From Eledone cirrhosa (taxonomy: Eukaryota): 64,000 nt of DNA. Shown in pieces: positions 37,201-63,200 of this stretch. Positions within the stretch are counted from its first letter, which is position 1. Each line of letters begins with the position of its first letter. The stretch covers positions 249,798,001 through 249,862,000 of the forward strand of contig OZ024740.1 in assembly GCA_964016885.1 (NCBI GenBank), given 5' to 3'. The translations under genes were made by a program, and so were the position numbers. The notes under the pieces were generated by a model. The model ran no database searches. It was not told where the DNA came from and worked only from the letters and a program-made list of their open reading frames with translations.

Positions 37201-37721
37201 ACTGCAAAGTGGGCGTGGAGGTGCCACGGCAAAAAAGCACCCAGCACTCACTGTAAATGAGGTTGGTGTTAGGAAGGGCATCCAGCTGTAGAAATCAAGC
37301 CAAAATCAGTTCCCGTCCCACCCTTGCAAGCAAGGAAAAAGCGGACGTAAAATATGATGATGATGATATATAAATATAGTTAAAACTTAGACGGGAACAA
37401 AAACATAGAGGCAGTACAAATAAGAGTTTATTAGGTTCACGCTTTTGAGAGCGGGGGTATACATATATATATATATATACATACATATATATATATATAT
37501 TGTTATACTTGGGGAGGGTCATATTGTAATAATATTGCCAGAAATAACAACAGAACACACTCACTGTTTGGTTGGTTTTCGCTTCTGCATCTTTTATATC
37601 TCCATAGTTAATTCATTTGACCATCAATATTTATCATTGACTGACCAATGGTCAAAAATACAGATATAAATATATATATAGTCTAACAAAGTTCTTTCGT
37701 TGCACATCTGCAACATCATCA

Positions 37722-40385
37722 TCATCATCATCATTTTACGCCCGCTTTTCCCTGCTTGCAAGGGTGGGACGGGTCTTATTCAGCACAGCATCTCTCCACT
37801 CGTCACGGTCCCTCGTCATCTCCATTGTGAGCTTCAATGATCTGAGGTCTGTTCTCACCACCTCCGCCCATGTTTTTTGTGGTCTACCTCTACCACGTCT
37901 TCCTTCAACTGGCAATTCCTGGCACTTCTTCACCCAACGGTCATCCTCCATGCGCATCACATGTCCATACCACCTCAGTCTCCTCTCCCGTACACTACAT
38001 TCTATCCCTCTCAGACACAGTTTCTCTCTCAACACATTTATGCTGGGTCGTTCACGCACATTTACACTGCACATCCAACGGAGGATGCTTGCCTCATTTC
38101 TCTCCAGCCGTCGCATATCCTCTGCAGTTGCTGCCCATGTCTCACTACCATGCAGCATCGCGCTCCTCACACAGGCATCATACAACCGGCCTTTCATACG
38201 CAGGGAGAAACCCTTCTTCGTCAACAGAAGAAGCAGCTCCCTAAACTTCTTCCAACCCGTCCTTATTCTAGATACTATGACCTCGGAACACCCTCCTCCC
38301 ATGCTAATCTGATCTCCTAGGTACCGGAAGCTATCCACCACTTCTATAGCGCCCTCCTGCATTTGAAAAATGTGTCTATCAATGCGACTTCTACTGTCTA
38401 ATTTCCCTGTACATCTACTGCATACATATTTCTCCCTACCTGTTAGTTTACCTGCTATCCTGCTACATCTCCTGTGTTCCCAGGATCTGCATTGTGTGCA
38501 TTTTATATAATTTATGCCAGTTCCTTTTCTGTATATCGAACATGGCCATTTCCCTGACAGAATCAGGGTTTTGTCCTCTTTTCTACTCATCAACACTTTT
38601 GTCTTAGCTAGATTCACTCTCAGTCCTCTTGCTTCCAACTGCTGTTTCCATAGCCAGAATTTATTCTCTAGCTCCTCTACTGATTCTGCTATAAGAACCA
38701 GATCGTCAGCATAGAGAAGTTCCCATGGACAGCCAGTCTTAAACTCCTCTGTTATGGCTTGGAGGACTATAATGAACAAGAGCGGGCTGAGGACCGAACC
38801 CTGATGTACTCCTACTTGTATCTGGAATTCCTCACTAAACTCCATTCCTACCCTGACTTTACTGAGAGTACCTCTGTACAAAGTTTGCACTGTCCTCACA
38901 AGCCATTCCTCAACACCTAGCTTCCTTAGGGAGCACCAGATGACAGATCGGGGTACCCTATCAAAGGCCTTCTCTAGGTCAACAAAGGCTAGGTATAGTG
39001 GTTTATTCTTCTCTAAGAACCTCTCTTGCAATTGTCTCACTAAGAAGAGGGCATCTGTTGTACTCTTCCCAAGCACAAAACCAAACTGCATCTCATCTAG
39101 TTCGACCCTTTCTCTAATTAGTTGTGCTAAAATCCTTTCTGCCACTTTCATAACCCGATCTATCAGTTTTATACCCCTATAATTGCTCCTCTCCAAAGCA
39201 TCCCCTTTACCTTTGTAGCAATTTATGAGAATACTGCTGCACCAGTCTTTGGGTATGACACCACCATATATAGCTTGATTGATGATGCGTGCAACCAGTT
39301 TAGTGCCTACGTCCCCTGATGCCTTCAGCATCTCAGCAACTATTCCCGATGGTCCGGCAGCCTTACCATTTTTCATTTCCCTAATCGCCTCTTGGACCCT
39401 ATATTCGTCAATCTCAATAGCTGGTCCCTCTGTTGGATCTACCAAGGGTAATTTCTCTCTCTCCCATTTGTTCTCCACATTCATCAGTCTCTCATAATGA
39501 CATTTCCAGGCCTCCTTTTTCTGATCATTCGTGACACTAAGTACACCGGCATCATACCGGACACATTTATCTCCAACAATATCCTGATTTGCATTGACAC
39601 ACTGCCTTGCAATGTGGAACACCGCACGCCTCTGATCTTCTCGTCGCAGAACATTGGCAAAACTCCTACTCTCTGCCTCCCTGCGTGCTAAGTACACCTG
39701 ACGTCTAGCTTCTCTCTTAGTGGCTGTATATTCTTCCCTACTCTCACCCTTTTTCCAAGCCTTCCATGCTAGTCTTTTGTCTCTAATGGCCTTATCTACT
39801 GTGCTGTTCCACCACCAGGTCACTCTCTGTCTGGTTGGAGCTCTGCTCCAGCCACAAGTTTCATCAGTAGCCTGCAGCAAGTTGTCACGTAAGAAATTCC
39901 AGTTATTATCTATGTCATACGTCTCTAAATCGTCTTCTTTTTCATCATATACATCTTGAAGGGCTTTCCTAAATTTGTATTTTAGTGAAAGGTCTTTTAG
40001 CTTCCAGACCTTTCTTCTCCACACCTTCCTATATGTCTCATTCCATCTCTTGTTTACTGAGATATCACTAACAACTAACCTATGCTGTGGGGTACATTCT
40101 TCCCCAGGGTATGCCTTGGTATTAGACACTAACTGCCTGTGCCGCTGCCTAACTAGTAAGAAGTCAATCTGGCGTATGTGCTCACCAGATTTGTAGGTTA
40201 TTAGGTGATTGGCAGGTTTCTGGAAGTTTGTGTTGCAAATAGTCAATGTACCTGCATCACAAAATTCAAGAAGTCTCACTCCTTCTTCATTTCTTGAACC
40301 GTAACCGTGCCCACCATGTACCCCAGTGTAACCATCCTGGAGCTGTCCAACATGATCATTGAAGTCTCCTGCTAGCATAACGATG
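37722..40385 (-). mobile_element. Young 5'-truncated RTE LINE, ORF uninterrupted
   Basis: Near-identical to 28808-31480; homology ends at ..cataacgatg (40385). Confidence 0.96.
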
Positions 40386-40514
40386 GTGGTACTATTATCA
40401 TGTTTGAACACACATGCAAACGCATGCACAGAGACGGAGACAAAAATAAATAAATAAATAAATAGATAAAATAAAAATGTTGTGAACACGACACAATAGG
40501 AGGAAACATGATAA

Positions 40515-40566
40515 TAGTACCACTGATGATGTTGCAGATGTGCAATGAAAGAACTTTGTTAGACTA
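40515..40566 (+). ncRNA. Candidate minimal hammerhead ribozyme
   Basis: CUGAUGA-U-GUUGCA(GAUG)UGCAAU-GAAA-GAAC-UU; interrupted stem I (UAGU..CA / UG..ACUA). Confidence 0.55.
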
Positions 40567-40811
40567 TATATATATATATTTATACCTGTATTTTTGACTG
40601 TTGGTCAGTCAATGATAAACATTGATGGCCAAATGAATTAACTATGGAGATATAAAAGATGCAGAAGCAAAAACCAACCAAACAGTGAGTGTGTTCTGTT
40701 GTTATTTCTGGCAATATTATTACAACAATATGACCCTCCCCAAGTATAACAATATTTGCTTCGACACGATTTCATATCAAAAACCTCGCAAAACAAACAT
40801 ATATATACAGA

Positions 40812-40864
40812 TATATATATTTCAAGGGCACCAAAACTTTGGTACGCTCTCATCAGATAAAATA
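40812..40864 (-). ncRNA. Hammerhead ribozyme remnant lacking the 3' strand of stem I
   Basis: CUGAUGA-GAGCGUACCAAAGUUUUGGUGCCCUU-GAAA-UAUAUAUA; homology to the 41501 copy stops at the predicted cleavage site. Confidence 0.7.
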
Positions 40865-41500
40865 CAGAGCTTGATTTATAAATATTGACATATCCAGGAA
40901 TTTGAACTACGTCTTCTTAAATATATATGTAAAATGTAAAATCAACATCCTTTGGAACTCATATTAGAAATGTAAACAAATTAATAAGTGTGTTTTATAT
41001 CTATATAAGCACCAATAATATTTATATTTATACACTTATTAATCTATATAGATATTTATATACTTACAACCTGTTGTAATATAATAAGATAAAATGTACT
41101 TACAACCATAATTCTTCATATAATCTAATTGATTATATATATAATATTATAACTCATAATTTAGCTAAATATTTTTTAAATTCTGGAATCATATTCCACC
41201 ATTCCTACAAACTTTTAATTTTTAACATTTCAATCTTTTAAAATTCACGTAAATACAAGCTTTTCTTTTTTCTTCCTATACATACATATATATATCCTAA
41301 TAATTATTTTAATCTACCTAACGTCTAAAAATAACGTTTTTTCCAGCCCTATGCCTCAAACTCATTTGCATATTCATCTTAATAATTTGAAATATTTGTT
41401 TTTTCCTCTCTTTCCCCCTCTTTCCTTTTACTATCCAGGTAAAACTTGAACCATTAAGGTCTCATTCCTGGATATGTCAATATTTATAAAACAAGCTCTG

Positions 41501-41560
41501 TATTTTATCTGATGAGAGCGTACCAAAGTTTTGGTACCATTGAAATATATATAATAGAAA
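41501..41560 (+). ncRNA. Minimal type I hammerhead ribozyme (PLE pLTR type)
   Basis: UUUUAU-CUGAUGA-(GUACCAAA/UUUGGUAC stem II)-GAAA-UAUAUA-UA^-AUAGAA. Confidence 0.75.
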
Positions 41561-41694
41561 AAATATGGTTTTATAAATATAGTTTCCATTTATTAATATC
41601 ATTGATATTATACTTCAGAAAACCCGTCGAGTGCTTTGAATCAGTTATAAAAATATATATTTGTTGAATTACCAACAAATTAAATATCTCTTTG

Positions 41695-41752
<58 letters not shown>

Positions 41753-42042: not shown

Positions 42043-44494
42043 ATCATCATCATTTTACATCTGCTCTTCCCTGCTTGCAAGGGTGGGACGGGTCTTATTC
42101 AGCAGATAATCTCTCCACTTGTCAAGGTCCTTCGTCATCTCCACCATGAGCTTCAGCGATCTGAGGTCTGTTCTCACCATCTCCGCCTATGTTTTTCGTG
42201 GTCTACCTCTACCACGTCTTCCTTCAACTGGCATTTCTTCACCCATCGGTCATCCTCCATGCACATCACATGTCCATACCACCTCAGTCTCCTCTCCCGT
42301 ACACTACATTCTATCTCTCTCAGACAGTTTCTCTCTCAACACATTCATGCTGGGTTGTTCACGCACATCGTCACTGCACATCCAACGGAGCATGTTGGCT
42401 TCATTTCTCTCCAGCCGTCGCATATCCTGTGCAGTTGCTGCCCATGTCTCACTACCATGCAGCATCGCGCTCCTCACACAGACATCATATAACCGGCATT
42501 CCGTATGCAGGGAGAAACCCTTCTTCGTCAGCAGAGGAAGCAGCTCCCTAAACTTCTTGCAACCCATCCTTATTCTAGATACTATGGCCTCGGAACAACT
42601 CCCTCCTCCCATGCTAATCTGATCTCCTAGGTACCGGAAGCTATCCACCACTTCTATAGCGCCCACCTGCATTTGAAAAATGTGTCTATCAATGCGACTT
42701 CTAATGTCTAATTTCCCTGTACATCTACTGCATACATATTTCTCCCTACCTGTTAGTTTACCTGCTATCCCGCTACATCTCCTGTGTACCCAGGATCTGC
42801 ATTGTGTGCATTTTATATAATTTATGCTAGTTCCTTTTCTGCATATCGAACATGGCCATTTCCCTGACGGAATCAGAGGTTTGTCCTCTTTTCTACTCAT
42901 CAACACTTTTGTCTTAGCTAGGTTCACTCTCAGTCCTCTTGCTTCCAACTGCTGTTTCCATAGCCAGAATTTATTCTCTAGTTCCTCTACTGATTCTGCT
43001 ATAAGAACCAGCTCGTCAGCATAATGAAGTTCCCATGGACAGCCAGTCTTAAACTCCTCTGTTATGGCTTGGAGGACTATAATGAACAAGAGCGGGCTGA
43101 GGACCGAACCTGGATGTACTCCTACCTGTATCTGGAATTCCTCACTAAACTCCATTCCTACCCTGAATTTACTGACAGTACCTCTGTACAAAGTTTGCAC
43201 TGTCCTCACAAGCCATTCCTCAACACCTAGTTTCCTTAGGGACCACCAGATGACACGATCGAGGTACCCTATCAAAGGCCTTCTCTAGGTCAACAAAGGC
43301 TAAGTATAGTGGCTTATTTTTCCCTAAGAACCTCTCTTGCAATTGTCTCACCAAGAAGAGGGCATCTGTTGCACTCTTCCCAGGCACAAAACCAAACTGC
43401 ATGTCATCTCGTTTGACCCTTTCTCTAATTAGTTGGGCTAATATCCTTTCTGCCACTTTCATAACCCGATCCATCAGTTTTATACCCCTATAATTTCTCC
43501 TCTCCAGAGCATCCCCTTTACCTTTGTAGCAATTTATGAGAATACTGCTGCACCAGTCTTTGGGTATGACACCGCCATAAATAGCCTGATTGATGATGCG
43601 TGCAACCAGTTTAGTGCCTACGTCCCCTGATGCCTTCAGCATCTCAGCAACTATCCCTGACGGTCCAGCGGCCTTACCATTTTTAATTTCCTTAATTGCC
43701 TCTTGGACCCTATATTCGTCAATCTCAATAGCTGCTCCCTGTCGGATCTACTGAGGGTAATTTCTCTTTCTCCCATTCGTTCTCCACATTCATCAGTCTC
43801 TCATAATGACATTTCCAGGCCTCCTTTTTCTGATCATTCGTGACACTAAGTACACCGGCATCATTCCGGACACATTTATCTCCAACAACATCCTGATTTG
43901 CATTGATACACTGCCTTGCAATGTGGAACACCGCACACCTCTGATCTTCCCATCGCAGAACATTGGCAAACCTCCTACTCTCAGCCTCCCTGCGTGCTAA
44001 GTACACCTGATGTCTAGCTTCTCTCTTAGCGGCTGTATATTCTTCCCTACTCTCACCCTTTTTCCAAGACTTCCATGCTAGTCTTTTGTCTCTAATGGCC
44101 TTATCTACTGTGCTGTTCCACTACCAGGTTATTCTCTGTCTGGTTAGAGCTCTGCTCCAGCCACAAGTTTCATCAGTAGCCTGCAGTAAGTTGTCACGTA
44201 AGAAGTTATTATCTATGTCATAAGTCAATCCCGCCGAGGTTGACTTTGCCTTTCATCCTTACGGGGTCGATAAAATAAAGTACCAGTAATACACTGGATA
44301 ATTGCTGGCCTTATGCCTAAAGTAGAAACAATTATCTATGTCATACGTCTCTAAATCGACTTCTTTTTCGTCATACACATCTTGAAGGGCTTTCCTAAAT
44401 TTGTATTTTAGTGAAAGGTCTTTTAGCTTCCAGACCTTTCTTCTCCACACCTTCCTGTATGTCTCATTCCATCTCTTGCTTACTGAGATATCAC
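42043..44494 (-). mobile_element. 5'-truncated, decayed RTE LINE with a nested SINE
   Basis: ORFs 42304-43275, 43220-43642 and 43725-44006 are collinear with the 28831 protein. Confidence 0.94.
44223..44330 (+). mobile_element. 5'-truncated SINE with 15-bp TSD
   Basis: attatctatgtcata at 44208-44222 and 44331-44345. Confidence 0.9.
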
Positions 44495-44496
44495 AA

Positions 44497-44525
44497 ACAT
44501 ATATATATATATACATACATATATA

Positions 44526-60282: not shown

Positions 60283-60284
<2 letters not shown>

Positions 60285-63200
60285 ATTAAATAAATGGAAA
60301 ACTATATTTATAAAACCATATTTATTTCATTATATATATTTCGGGGATATCATATTAACAATATGCTATGCCTTCATCAGACAAAATACAATATAAACAG
60401 TTTTATAGATAAATATATTCGACATACCGTAATAAACATCGACTTCATTTGAAGAGGTTTACGCTAGCAGTGAAAATTTTATACAGAGAGAAAGAAAGAG
60501 AAAAAGAAAGAAAGACAAAACGAAGAAAAGGAAGAAAAAGAAGAAAAAGAAAAAGAAGAAATGCAGAAATGCATGGAACAAAATAGAGAGATGGAAAAAT
60601 AGATAAAGCGAAGAGCTTCATGTAAAGAAACAGAAAGATATATATATATATATAGAGAGAGGAAATAGAGATAGATACATATATATATATAGAAAATTAG
60701 GTAGTGTGAGGTCATTTTGAGTAAGTGTATCAATGATACATTTATTTATTTATTTATTTAGCGCAAGTATTAATGTAAGGGAGATATATATAGAGAGAGA
60801 AAAAAAATTTAAAAATAGCCAGACATATTCGAGGCGTATAAAATCCTATGTTTTAATGTATTAGTATTTATAAAACTTACACTATATTGTAAATATCAGT
60901 ATTCCTGAATGAAACAAGTATCTATAATGTGTGAAAATTCATTATCTTATGTTTAGTTTTATAAAATTCATATGTTTATATGACAGTTACAAATATCCAT
61001 GTGAATCTAACTGATTCACTCTGCAAACTCTAAGTTACCGGAAAACATTCTCAATGTGGTATAAAAATTTGAGCGTATTATTATTCCTGCGATTACTCTA
61101 CAAGATTATCTATCAAGCAGAAATAGAGAGCAGATTTCAATATACTAATAAAAATATATATTATATTATAAACAGAACTAAAAATAGAAAGATAACAATA
61201 ATAATAATAATAAGTAAAAATATAGAATAGAAAACTAAAAAAAATAAAAAATAAAAAAATATTAAAATATTATTATTATTAAATATTAAAAAAACAATAA
61301 TAATATTAAACTAAAAAATATTACGAAAGAATATTACATAATAAAAATATTGCATACTAAAAATACTACGTATTAAAAAATATTACGTATTAAAAATATT
61401 AAAAATGAAAATAAAAAATAAAAAATATTATAGAATACTACAATACTAAAAAAAAAAATATTATAGAATACTACAATACTAAAAAAAATAAAAATAAAAA
61501 TAAAATAAAAATAAAAATAAACCACAAAGAACAACCCTTCAAAGTTAATTGGCAATATATTGCCAAGTTCATTACAAGACAAAGCCAAAAAATTATCTAT
61601 CAAATCACATCTAGCAAAGAACATTTCAAAAAGATTATGATGTCCAATTATGTCTATATATGTTCTTATATTTAATATAGAAATTTATCTAGTGTAAGGT
61701 TAATTCAAAAAATTTGGAGCATCGGCTTTTAGGGTAGCTTAATTTTTCATGAGGAATGTTTAGATAGAAATAAAAATAAATAAAATAAAAATAAACAATA
61801 AAAAAAGAGTAAAAAGAGGGAATCAAAGATTTAGGAATCAAAAAATTATCGGCTAGTTCTCATATAAATATAAATCAAACTAAATATACTACATTTTAAA
61901 TTTAAATTTATATTTAAACGTTGAGTTTAATCTATGTTTGCAACAACTGAATAAATTTGTCCGTAGGTTAAGGGAATTTTTAGATTTTAGTATAAAGAAT
62001 ATCTCCTCTGCGCAGAGGTCACATGTCTCAGAGGATGAATTAAAAGGAATCCCTCTTGAGACTATATTCCAAGCCATTGAATATCTAACGTTATCTAGCT
62101 TAAGTTGCCAGAGTACGCCTGATAGTGCCGTTGAAGATTTTTTACTTGGATCTGTGAAAGAATTCTTGTGGTTATTATAGCGAAGTTTAAATTCCGTCGA
62201 TGTGGAACCGACGTAGTTAAAAGAATTAGAGTCAGTATTAACATTACAATTGTATACTATATTTTTAACTAAGCAGTTGTTATTTAACGGACATTTAGAT
62301 CTATCTCTACAGTTACATTTGTTAACTTGTATATTATTTATGCTATTATCAGTAGGTTTTAAGTTCCTATTATTTATTCTATTAATATTTTGTGCTAAAT
62401 TTTTGGTGGATGAGTAGGTTAATTTAATTGTATGCCTATTGAAGATTGAGTGATACCTATGTGTTCTAGGGAAGCGATTATCAAGAGCTTTGAAAAATAA
62501 TTTAGCGATGTGGGTTTTAATGTTTAGTGAGAAAGGGGGGGTAAACCAAATTATGTTCCTAGTTCTATTTCTTTTTTGTCCTTTGGAATTATTGTAATGC
62601 TTTCTATTATAGTTGTTAAAGTTGTTGCCGTAATTAAAAAAGTTGTTACTTTGTTTAGTTTGTCTATCATTATCTATGTATACAATCTTATCAGTATACC
62701 CTGCCCTAGCTAGTGCATCATTATAGTACTGGGCCTTTTCGTCAAAAATCTTTCTATTCGACGAGATCCTAGAGATACGTTTTTGGACTGAGTTTACTAT
62801 AGTGTTTTTGACAGATCTGGGGTGGTTAGAGTTAAAGTTGACATAGTTTAAGTTTTCATTCAACTTGTGAAAAGGATAGTGGAGACATGTGTTGAGATTT
62901 AATGTTATATCTAGGAAATTGACTATTCTATGGTTGTTCTCAATTTCTATTTTAAGGTTAAAGTAATTAAAAAATTTTGTAATTTGTTTACATTTTCTAT
63001 TTAGTTCAGGGTTATTATTATTAATAAGTAAAAGCATGTCATCCCTATATAAACCTCCGGTAGTACCAGGTATTTTCCTATGTAGCGAATTGATTAAAAA
63101 TAAGCCCACAAGGTCAGTTACCTGAACTGAGTCGGAAGATCCCATAGTTATGTCAAAATTGTTATCTCTATCTGCTCTGGTCCATAATTTGTCATTAAAT

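What the first reader, a model, noticed from the sequence alone, without database searches (positions are those of the whole stretch)
40812..41553. Inverted hammerhead pair in which one copy ends exactly at the predicted self-cleavage site
Seen: 40812-40901 and 41464-41553 are 90-bp inverted repeats (3 mismatches), each containing CUGAUGA, a stem II, GAAA and UAUAUAUA. The plus copy continues AUAGAA and closes stem I with UUUUAU. The minus copy diverges right after ..GAAAUAUAUAUA, the H17 position, and cannot form stem I. Known: PLE pLTRs carry minimal type I hammerheads with palindromic stem III, proposed to act as dimers. Inference: this is a footprint of cDNA copied from a ribozyme-cleaved RNA end, in a small non-coding PLE derivative (retrozyme-like). 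The AT-dinucleotide context makes the exact breakpoint somewhat ambiguous.
Basis: partly seen in the sequence, partly recalled or inferred. Interest (0 to 1): 0.75.

Follow-up and report, generated by a model that had tools for sequence, protein, structure and literature searches.

The report
Truncated Penelope copy with mirror arm
This is a shortened copy of a very common Penelope-type jumping gene with its usual mirror-image end piece; the mirror piece stops at the predicted ribozyme cut, but copies stop there no more often than at a nearby control spot, so the break likely comes from a TA repeat rather than from RNA cutting.

Summary
The 90-nt inverted repeat and both hammerhead motifs are real. 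They belong to a 5'-truncated Hydra-clade Penelope-like element (PLE): main copy 40899-41696 (+) with the usual inverted arm 40812-40901 (-), both ends in (TA)n. The stretch between them is 3' UTR of an ORF-bearing family, not a retrozyme. Genome-wide, 5,563 copies read through the predicted cut and 235 differ there; of 90 of those 235 examined, 8 truly end there, about 0.4% of copies. Ends running into (TA)n number 10 at the cut, 13 at a control site 28 nt downstream, and 3,384 at the normal +51 end. The break falls in the hammerhead's own TA run, which merges with the target repeat. One weak lead remains: 5' boundaries of copies at the cut are about 1.8-fold (95% 0.9-3.5) above two control positions. 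The scan noted similar cases in other genomes.

The parts
40812..40901 (-). Inverted, 5'-truncated pLTR arm with hammerhead core (CUGAUGA 40856-40850); lacks the ~51 nt normally found after the predicted cut
40899..40901 (.). Inversion junction with 3-nt microhomology shared by arm and body
   Evidence: other copies carry the same three bases and continue upstream
40899..41696 (+). Main copy: distal 3' UTR, pLTR and tail of a Hydra-clade PLE; 5'-truncated about 610 nt downstream of the ORF stop, so no ORF here
   Evidence: window 40899 = L111 6221; last ORF piece ends L111 5610
41501..41561 (+). Minimal type I hammerhead: stem I 5' strand to 41508, core 41509-41515, stem II 41516-41541, GAAA 41542-41545, palindrome 41546-41551, predicted cut after A41553, stem I 3' strand from 41554
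   Evidence: activity untested
41605..41696 (+). Tail of about 92 nt between the two fixed 3' ends of the family (short end 41604 = +51, long end 41696 = +143 from the cut); in full copies it leads on into the ORF start
40798..40819 (.). Degenerate (TA)n target island, left side; overlaps the arm's own TA run
41697..41744 (.). (TA)n target island, right side
40460..40797 (+). Neighbour: 3' end of a second TA-targeting repeat family, likely another PLE; left limit approximate; its inverted arm lies at 37497-37721

Best explanation
This is a 5'-truncated insertion of a Hydra-clade Penelope-like retrotransposon into a (TA)n repeat, with the usual inverted arm, and that arm likely lost its last ~51 bases through TA microhomology rather than through ribozyme cutting. 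Shown: family identity, two fixed 3' ends at +51 and +143, one end of each kind in most mirror pairs, and rarity of ends at the cut. Inferred, by analogy with the Anolis Poseidon element: the RT starts at two internal RNA sites downstream of the hammerhead and copies across an uncut (or re-ligated) hammerhead, giving a long arm and a short inverted arm. Inferred: here the UA repeat of helix III stood in for the normal short end, either by pairing with the nicked (TA)n target during insertion or by a later deletion between the two TA runs (possibly when the neighbouring element inserted). These routes cannot be told apart from this locus.
For: Read-through 5,563 vs 235 differing. Of 90 of the 235 examined: 78 are TA slippage or point variants that continue, 3 are other elements inserted in the TA run with the remainder resuming downstream, 1 is a short internal deletion, 8 (the window copy included) end there; estimate 21 (10-38) of 5,798 = 0.37%. 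Matched patterns with four extra TA units: 10 at the cut, 13 at +28 (10 of the 12 viewed are true ends), contexts equally common (11 vs 13 of 40 unbiased copies); 3,384 at +51. Of 30 read-through copies, 16 long, 13 short, 1 other by eye (the regex miscalled L106 and gave 15/14/1). 32 of the first 100 listed matches form 16 head-to-head pairs within 1 kb; 5 of 6 pairs viewed have one long and one short end. 38 of 40 unbiased short-end copies extend upstream across the cut position and none starts at it. The lost 55 nt are not elsewhere in the window. Anolis data: RT starts at two internal sites, hammerhead mutants insert normally, no RNA-seq reads begin or end at the cut (PMC11167929).
Against: The single event at this locus cannot be assigned: priming on a cut RNA ending in a UA repeat would leave the same junction. 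Only one control position was counted for 3' ends; 7 of the 10 matches were not viewed; the remainder was sought only 1.5-2 kb downstream. 5' boundaries at the cut are somewhat raised (24 of 70 vs 9 of 40 and 8 of 40; ratio 1.8, 95% 0.9-3.5; 2.6, 95% 1.1-6.9, for those joined to an inverted arm), so cut RNA may sometimes serve as template.
Confidence: 0.86

Rival explanations
1. The inverted arm was primed on the 3' end of the 5' cleavage product of the hammerhead, whose UA-repeat end would pair with the (TA)n target: a true cleavage footprint, but of a rare pathway.
For: The arm ends within the 9-nt window that includes position 17; 8 of 90 examined variant copies end there; the fold covaries between families, so it is likely under selection.
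Against: Same frequency at the +28 control, which has less microhomology and no ribozyme site; about 300-fold rarer than the +51 end. A cut leaves a 2',3'-cyclic phosphate end lacking the downstream RNA that the Anolis protein needs (established chemistry; PMC11167929). Monomer fold is weak, -2.0 vs -9.0 kcal/mol for the best fold.
Confidence: 0.09
2. The unit is a small non-coding retrozyme-like family with fixed inverted hammerheads.
For: The window copy has no ORF and two hammerheads; most copies in the genome are short.
Against: The spacer is PLE 3' UTR contiguous with the ORF in L063, L068, L069, L070, L074 and L080; 5' ends and junctions vary from copy to copy; hammerheads lie on opposite strands, not in tandem.
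Confidence: 0.02

Closest known systems
Hydra clade of C-terminal EN+ Penelope-like elements (Craig et al. 2021, PMC8557442; passages, section 11 and supplement file 1 part 2 of 59 read)
   Same: Single ORF of 743-750 aa in sister families, RW[K/R] and DKT motifs, CxCx5C linker, CxxC before E and CxH after N, hammerhead in the pLTR, (TA)n target, inverted 5' copy.
   Different: Unit about 3.8 kb (hammerhead to hammerhead 3,839 bp in L225) because of a ~1.2-kb 3' UTR, against generally <3 kb; RWR rather than RWK; tail about 92 nt against 30-40; hammerhead matches none of those listed in the supplement part read.
PLE insertion unit with pLTR, inverted pLTR and optional tail (PMC3846280, passages; PMC11167929, parts 1-2 of 4)
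   Same: Head-to-head inverted arm, microhomology junction, two fixed outer ends downstream of the hammerhead.
   Different: The short arm here stops ~51 nt early, in the helix III TA run.
Minimal hammerheads of metazoan PLEs (Cervera and de la Pena 2014, PMC4209133; parts 1-2 of 4)
   Same: Type I, palindromic helix III, long helix II; the paper already notes dual motifs 100-700 bp apart on opposite strands.
   Different: Base of helix II is G-U or A-U, not G-C; conserved pyrimidine mismatch at pair 4; helix I up to 8 bp.
Non-LTR retrozymes (PMC7229834, abstract; bioRxiv 10.64898/2026.07.22.740005, part 1 of 5)
   Same: Non-coding, type I hammerhead, PLE-related.
   Different: Not a tandem array of 170-400-nt monomers; hammerheads are inverted; the body is PLE 3' UTR.

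Membership tests
Hydra-clade PLE | Single ORF, RT with C-terminal GIY-YIG endonuclease | tested here: met
   Open frames of 743-750 aa in L222, L225, L226 with YRDD-type motif; broken ORF contiguous with the window's UTR in L111. Pfam hit none of the three directly; homologue P0013 gives weak RVT_1 (E 0.019) and GIY-YIG (E 0.002) hits below cut-off.
Hydra-clade PLE | RWK motif and DKT in place of DKG | tested here: met
   RWR/RWC here and RWK in homologues in the same column; DKT in 7 of 7 aligned rows.
Hydra-clade PLE | CxCx5C linker; CxxC before E and CxH after N; CCHH absent | tested here: met
   Read by eye; L222 lacks part of the linker and L223 is cut short.
Hydra-clade PLE | Hammerhead in pLTR and insertion into (TA)n | tested here: met
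   Hammerheads flank the ORF in L225 at 1128 and 4967; ends in (TA)n.
Hydra-clade PLE | Length generally under 3 kb | tested here: not met
   About 3.8 kb; the paper says 'generally' and lists 1.1-3.0 kb consensuses, many incomplete.
Hydra-clade PLE | RT phylogeny with reference Hydra families | not tested
Minimal type I hammerhead | Core CUGANGA / GAAA / UH with helices I and II and palindromic helix III, with covariation | tested here: met
   Across 4 related families (262, 13, 11 and 14 motifs; overlapping loci not all removed) stem II pairs switch A-U to G-C (pair 2), G-C to A-U (pairs 3, 5), U-A to C-G (pair 6); the hexamer palindrome differs in one family; stem I changes are one-sided only. 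Motifs were selected for a palindrome, so that feature is not independent.
Minimal type I hammerhead | Self-cleavage as monomer, dimer or with protein | not testable with these tools
   Needs an assay.
Non-LTR retrozyme | Tandem monomers of 170-400 nt, each with a hammerhead | tested here: not met
   0 same-strand pairs within 1 kb vs 16 inverted pairs among the first 100 of 5,563 matches.
Non-LTR retrozyme | Expression as linear and circular RNA | not testable with these tools
   No RNA run was available for this stretch.

The most novel reading that the evidence does not exclude
In this Hydra-clade family a small share of insertions (under 1%) are copied from hammerhead-cut RNA: the RT runs off the 5' end of the 3' cleavage product and folds back, leaving copies that begin at the cut and join an inverted arm; the window's arm might be the rarer mirror case, primed on the 5' product. 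That would be genomic evidence of PLE ribozyme cleavage in vivo.
Probability: 0.2. Interest if true: 0.45.

Novelty: new member of a known kind. Interest (0 to 1): 0.13.

Why it matters
Whether PLE hammerheads cut in vivo is open (PMC8557442, PMC11167929), so a real footprint would matter. This locus does not supply it: the family statistics show templates almost always copied across the cut site. The useful residue is a large (>5,800 copies) Hydra-clade family with sharp ends at +51 and +143 that predict its RT start sites, and a weak 5'-boundary signal that a full-genome count could settle.

Tried and rejected
Rfam scan: no hammerhead family hit, only microsatellite noise. Unconstrained folding does not give the hammerhead. 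Idea that the neighbouring element split the arm and displaced its end: the missing 55 nt are not beyond the neighbour's far arm or elsewhere in the window. Idea of a sharp 5' cluster at 41426-41443 marking a start site or splice acceptor (19 of 40): not upheld, since several are subfamily divergence points and multi-reference mapping spread them out and was itself confounded by shared inverted arms. Pfam and PDB searches of the ORF found nothing significant; the Atlas could not read the protein. Earlier findings by sequence: none. Four literature searches listed no paper on copy ends at the cut in Hydra-clade PLEs; the library is partial, and supplements of the preprint and most of PMC8557442's were not seen.

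Full report
Observation. The two 90-nt arms exist at the stated coordinates with 3 mismatches, and each carries the hammerhead core, stem II, GAAA and a UA repeat. The plus copy forms stem I; the minus copy diverges after position 17. Its TA run merges with a degenerate (TA)n island at 40798-40819, so the breakpoint is uncertain over about 9 nt. Rfam has no matching family.

What it is. The plus copy has over a thousand candidate relatives in the genome, and so has the spacer. In 6 of 19 other spacer copies similarity runs more than 1.2 kb upstream, into an endonuclease-like ORF end. L111 holds a broken full ORF contiguous with this UTR. Sister families have open frames of 743-750 aa flanked by related hammerheads. 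Their motifs (RW[K/R], DKT, CxCx5C, CxxC-E, N-CxH, no CCHH) and the (TA)n target fit the Hydra clade as defined in PMC8557442 section 11. The unit is longer than usual (3.8 kb), and no tree with reference families was built. The window copy starts about 610 nt after the stop codon, joins its inverted arm through a 3-nt microhomology and ends at 41696 in (TA)n. Such inverted units are described as typical (PMC8557442; PMC3846280), and hammerhead pairs 100-700 bp apart on opposite strands were noted in PMC4209133. Here 32 of the first 100 listed matches form 16 such pairs.

The hammerhead. Four related families keep the same stem II register with compensatory changes and a fixed mismatch at pair 4, and one has a different hexamer palindrome. 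The fold is therefore likely selected. It is weak as a monomer, lacks the G-C pair at the base of helix II, and its activity is untested.

Where copies end. 5,563 copies read on past the cut with the expected base and 235 do not. I examined the first 90 of the 235: 78 continue (slippage or point change), 3 carry another element inserted in the TA run with the rest resuming 0.2-1.5 kb on, 1 has a short internal deletion, and 8, this one included, end there with no remainder within 1.5-2 kb. That is about 21 (10-38) copies, 0.37%. With matched patterns, ends into four further TA units number 10 at the cut and 13 at +28, a 5-nt TA-like spot with no ribozyme role (10 of 12 viewed are true ends); the two contexts are equally common (11 and 13 of 40). 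The normal short end at +51 has 3,384. Among 30 read-through copies, 16 end at +143, 13 at +51 and 1 elsewhere, and 5 of 6 mirror pairs have one of each. In the window the plus copy has the long end, so the arm should have had the short end.

Mechanism. In the Anolis Poseidon element RT starts at two internal sites that define the tail, hammerhead mutants insert normally, and no RNA reads end at the cut (PMC11167929). By analogy (inferred) +51 and +143 are this family's start sites. 38 of 40 unbiased short-end copies run upstream across the cut position, so the template is nearly always uncut or re-ligated. The arm most likely lost its end because the helix III UA repeat matches the target repeat, either at priming or by later deletion. 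A second TA-targeting family abuts the same island; the missing stretch is not on its far side.

Result against this reading. Cutting could also show as copies that begin at the cut. Pattern counts were 133 at the cut, 213 at +7 and 107 at -13; true 5' boundaries were 24 of 70, 9 of 40 and 8 of 40 examined. Normalised by context frequency in 70 copies, the ratio to the control mean is 1.8 (95% 0.9-3.5), and 2.6 (1.1-6.9) for boundaries joined to an inverted arm (15, 3, 4). No rows were dropped: two loci at the cut are counted twice (L257/L258, L375/L376), at least one is the remainder after an insertion (L368), and some control calls are partial hammerheads or local duplications. The region is AT-rich and self-complementary, so the excess may be local sequence bias. 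It is a lead only.

Comparison and verdict. A new family of a known clade in its standard insertion form; not a retrozyme (PMC7229834 abstract; preprint part 1 of 5). Earlier scan notes on other genomes reached similar verdicts and mention similar weak signals; I saw them after these tests and did not check them. Interest 0.13.

Noticed in passing
window 37497-37721 (-) and about 40460-40797 (+): A second TA-targeting family forms its own mirror unit, split by later LINE-like insertions, with a short end and a 41-nt longer end. It has a hammerhead-like core at 40523 with a clear stem II but no obvious helix I/III fit. In 2 of 19 other copies (L192, L193) an endonuclease-like ORF end with a CxxC linker lies upstream, so likely another PLE clade.
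   Followed up: partly
window 60283-60390 (-): Hammerhead of a sister Hydra family; this family has open 750-aa frames (L225, L226) and many such frames were listed, so it may be young.
   Followed up: partly
window 41605-41696: The tail between the two fixed ends is about 92 nt, against 30-40 bp in the papers read.
   Followed up: partly
L257/L258 (G000:C3:200542509-200542610), L375/L376, L248: Fold-back copies whose two arms both begin at or next to the predicted cut; in L257/L258 a ~30-nt piece resembling the ORF start lies between them.
   Followed up: partly
L038, L053, L156, L058: Other mobile elements insert into the hammerhead's own TA run; the remainder of the element resumes downstream in three of the four.
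   Followed up: yes
window 41405-41439: Pyrimidine tract ending in CAG about 60 nt upstream of helix I, like a 3' splice site; PLE pLTR introns are known (PMC4209133), but no spliced copy was looked for.
   Followed up: no
many loci, e.g. L034, L081, L132, L327, L392: At least five further hammerhead families with other palindromes (CTAG, CGCG, GTAC, TGATCA, TGTACA) turn up by chance in the flanks.
   Followed up: no
window 38008-40073 and 42315-44499: Direct repeats of 91-97% identity about 4.3 kb apart, LINE-like by recalled resemblance.
   Followed up: no
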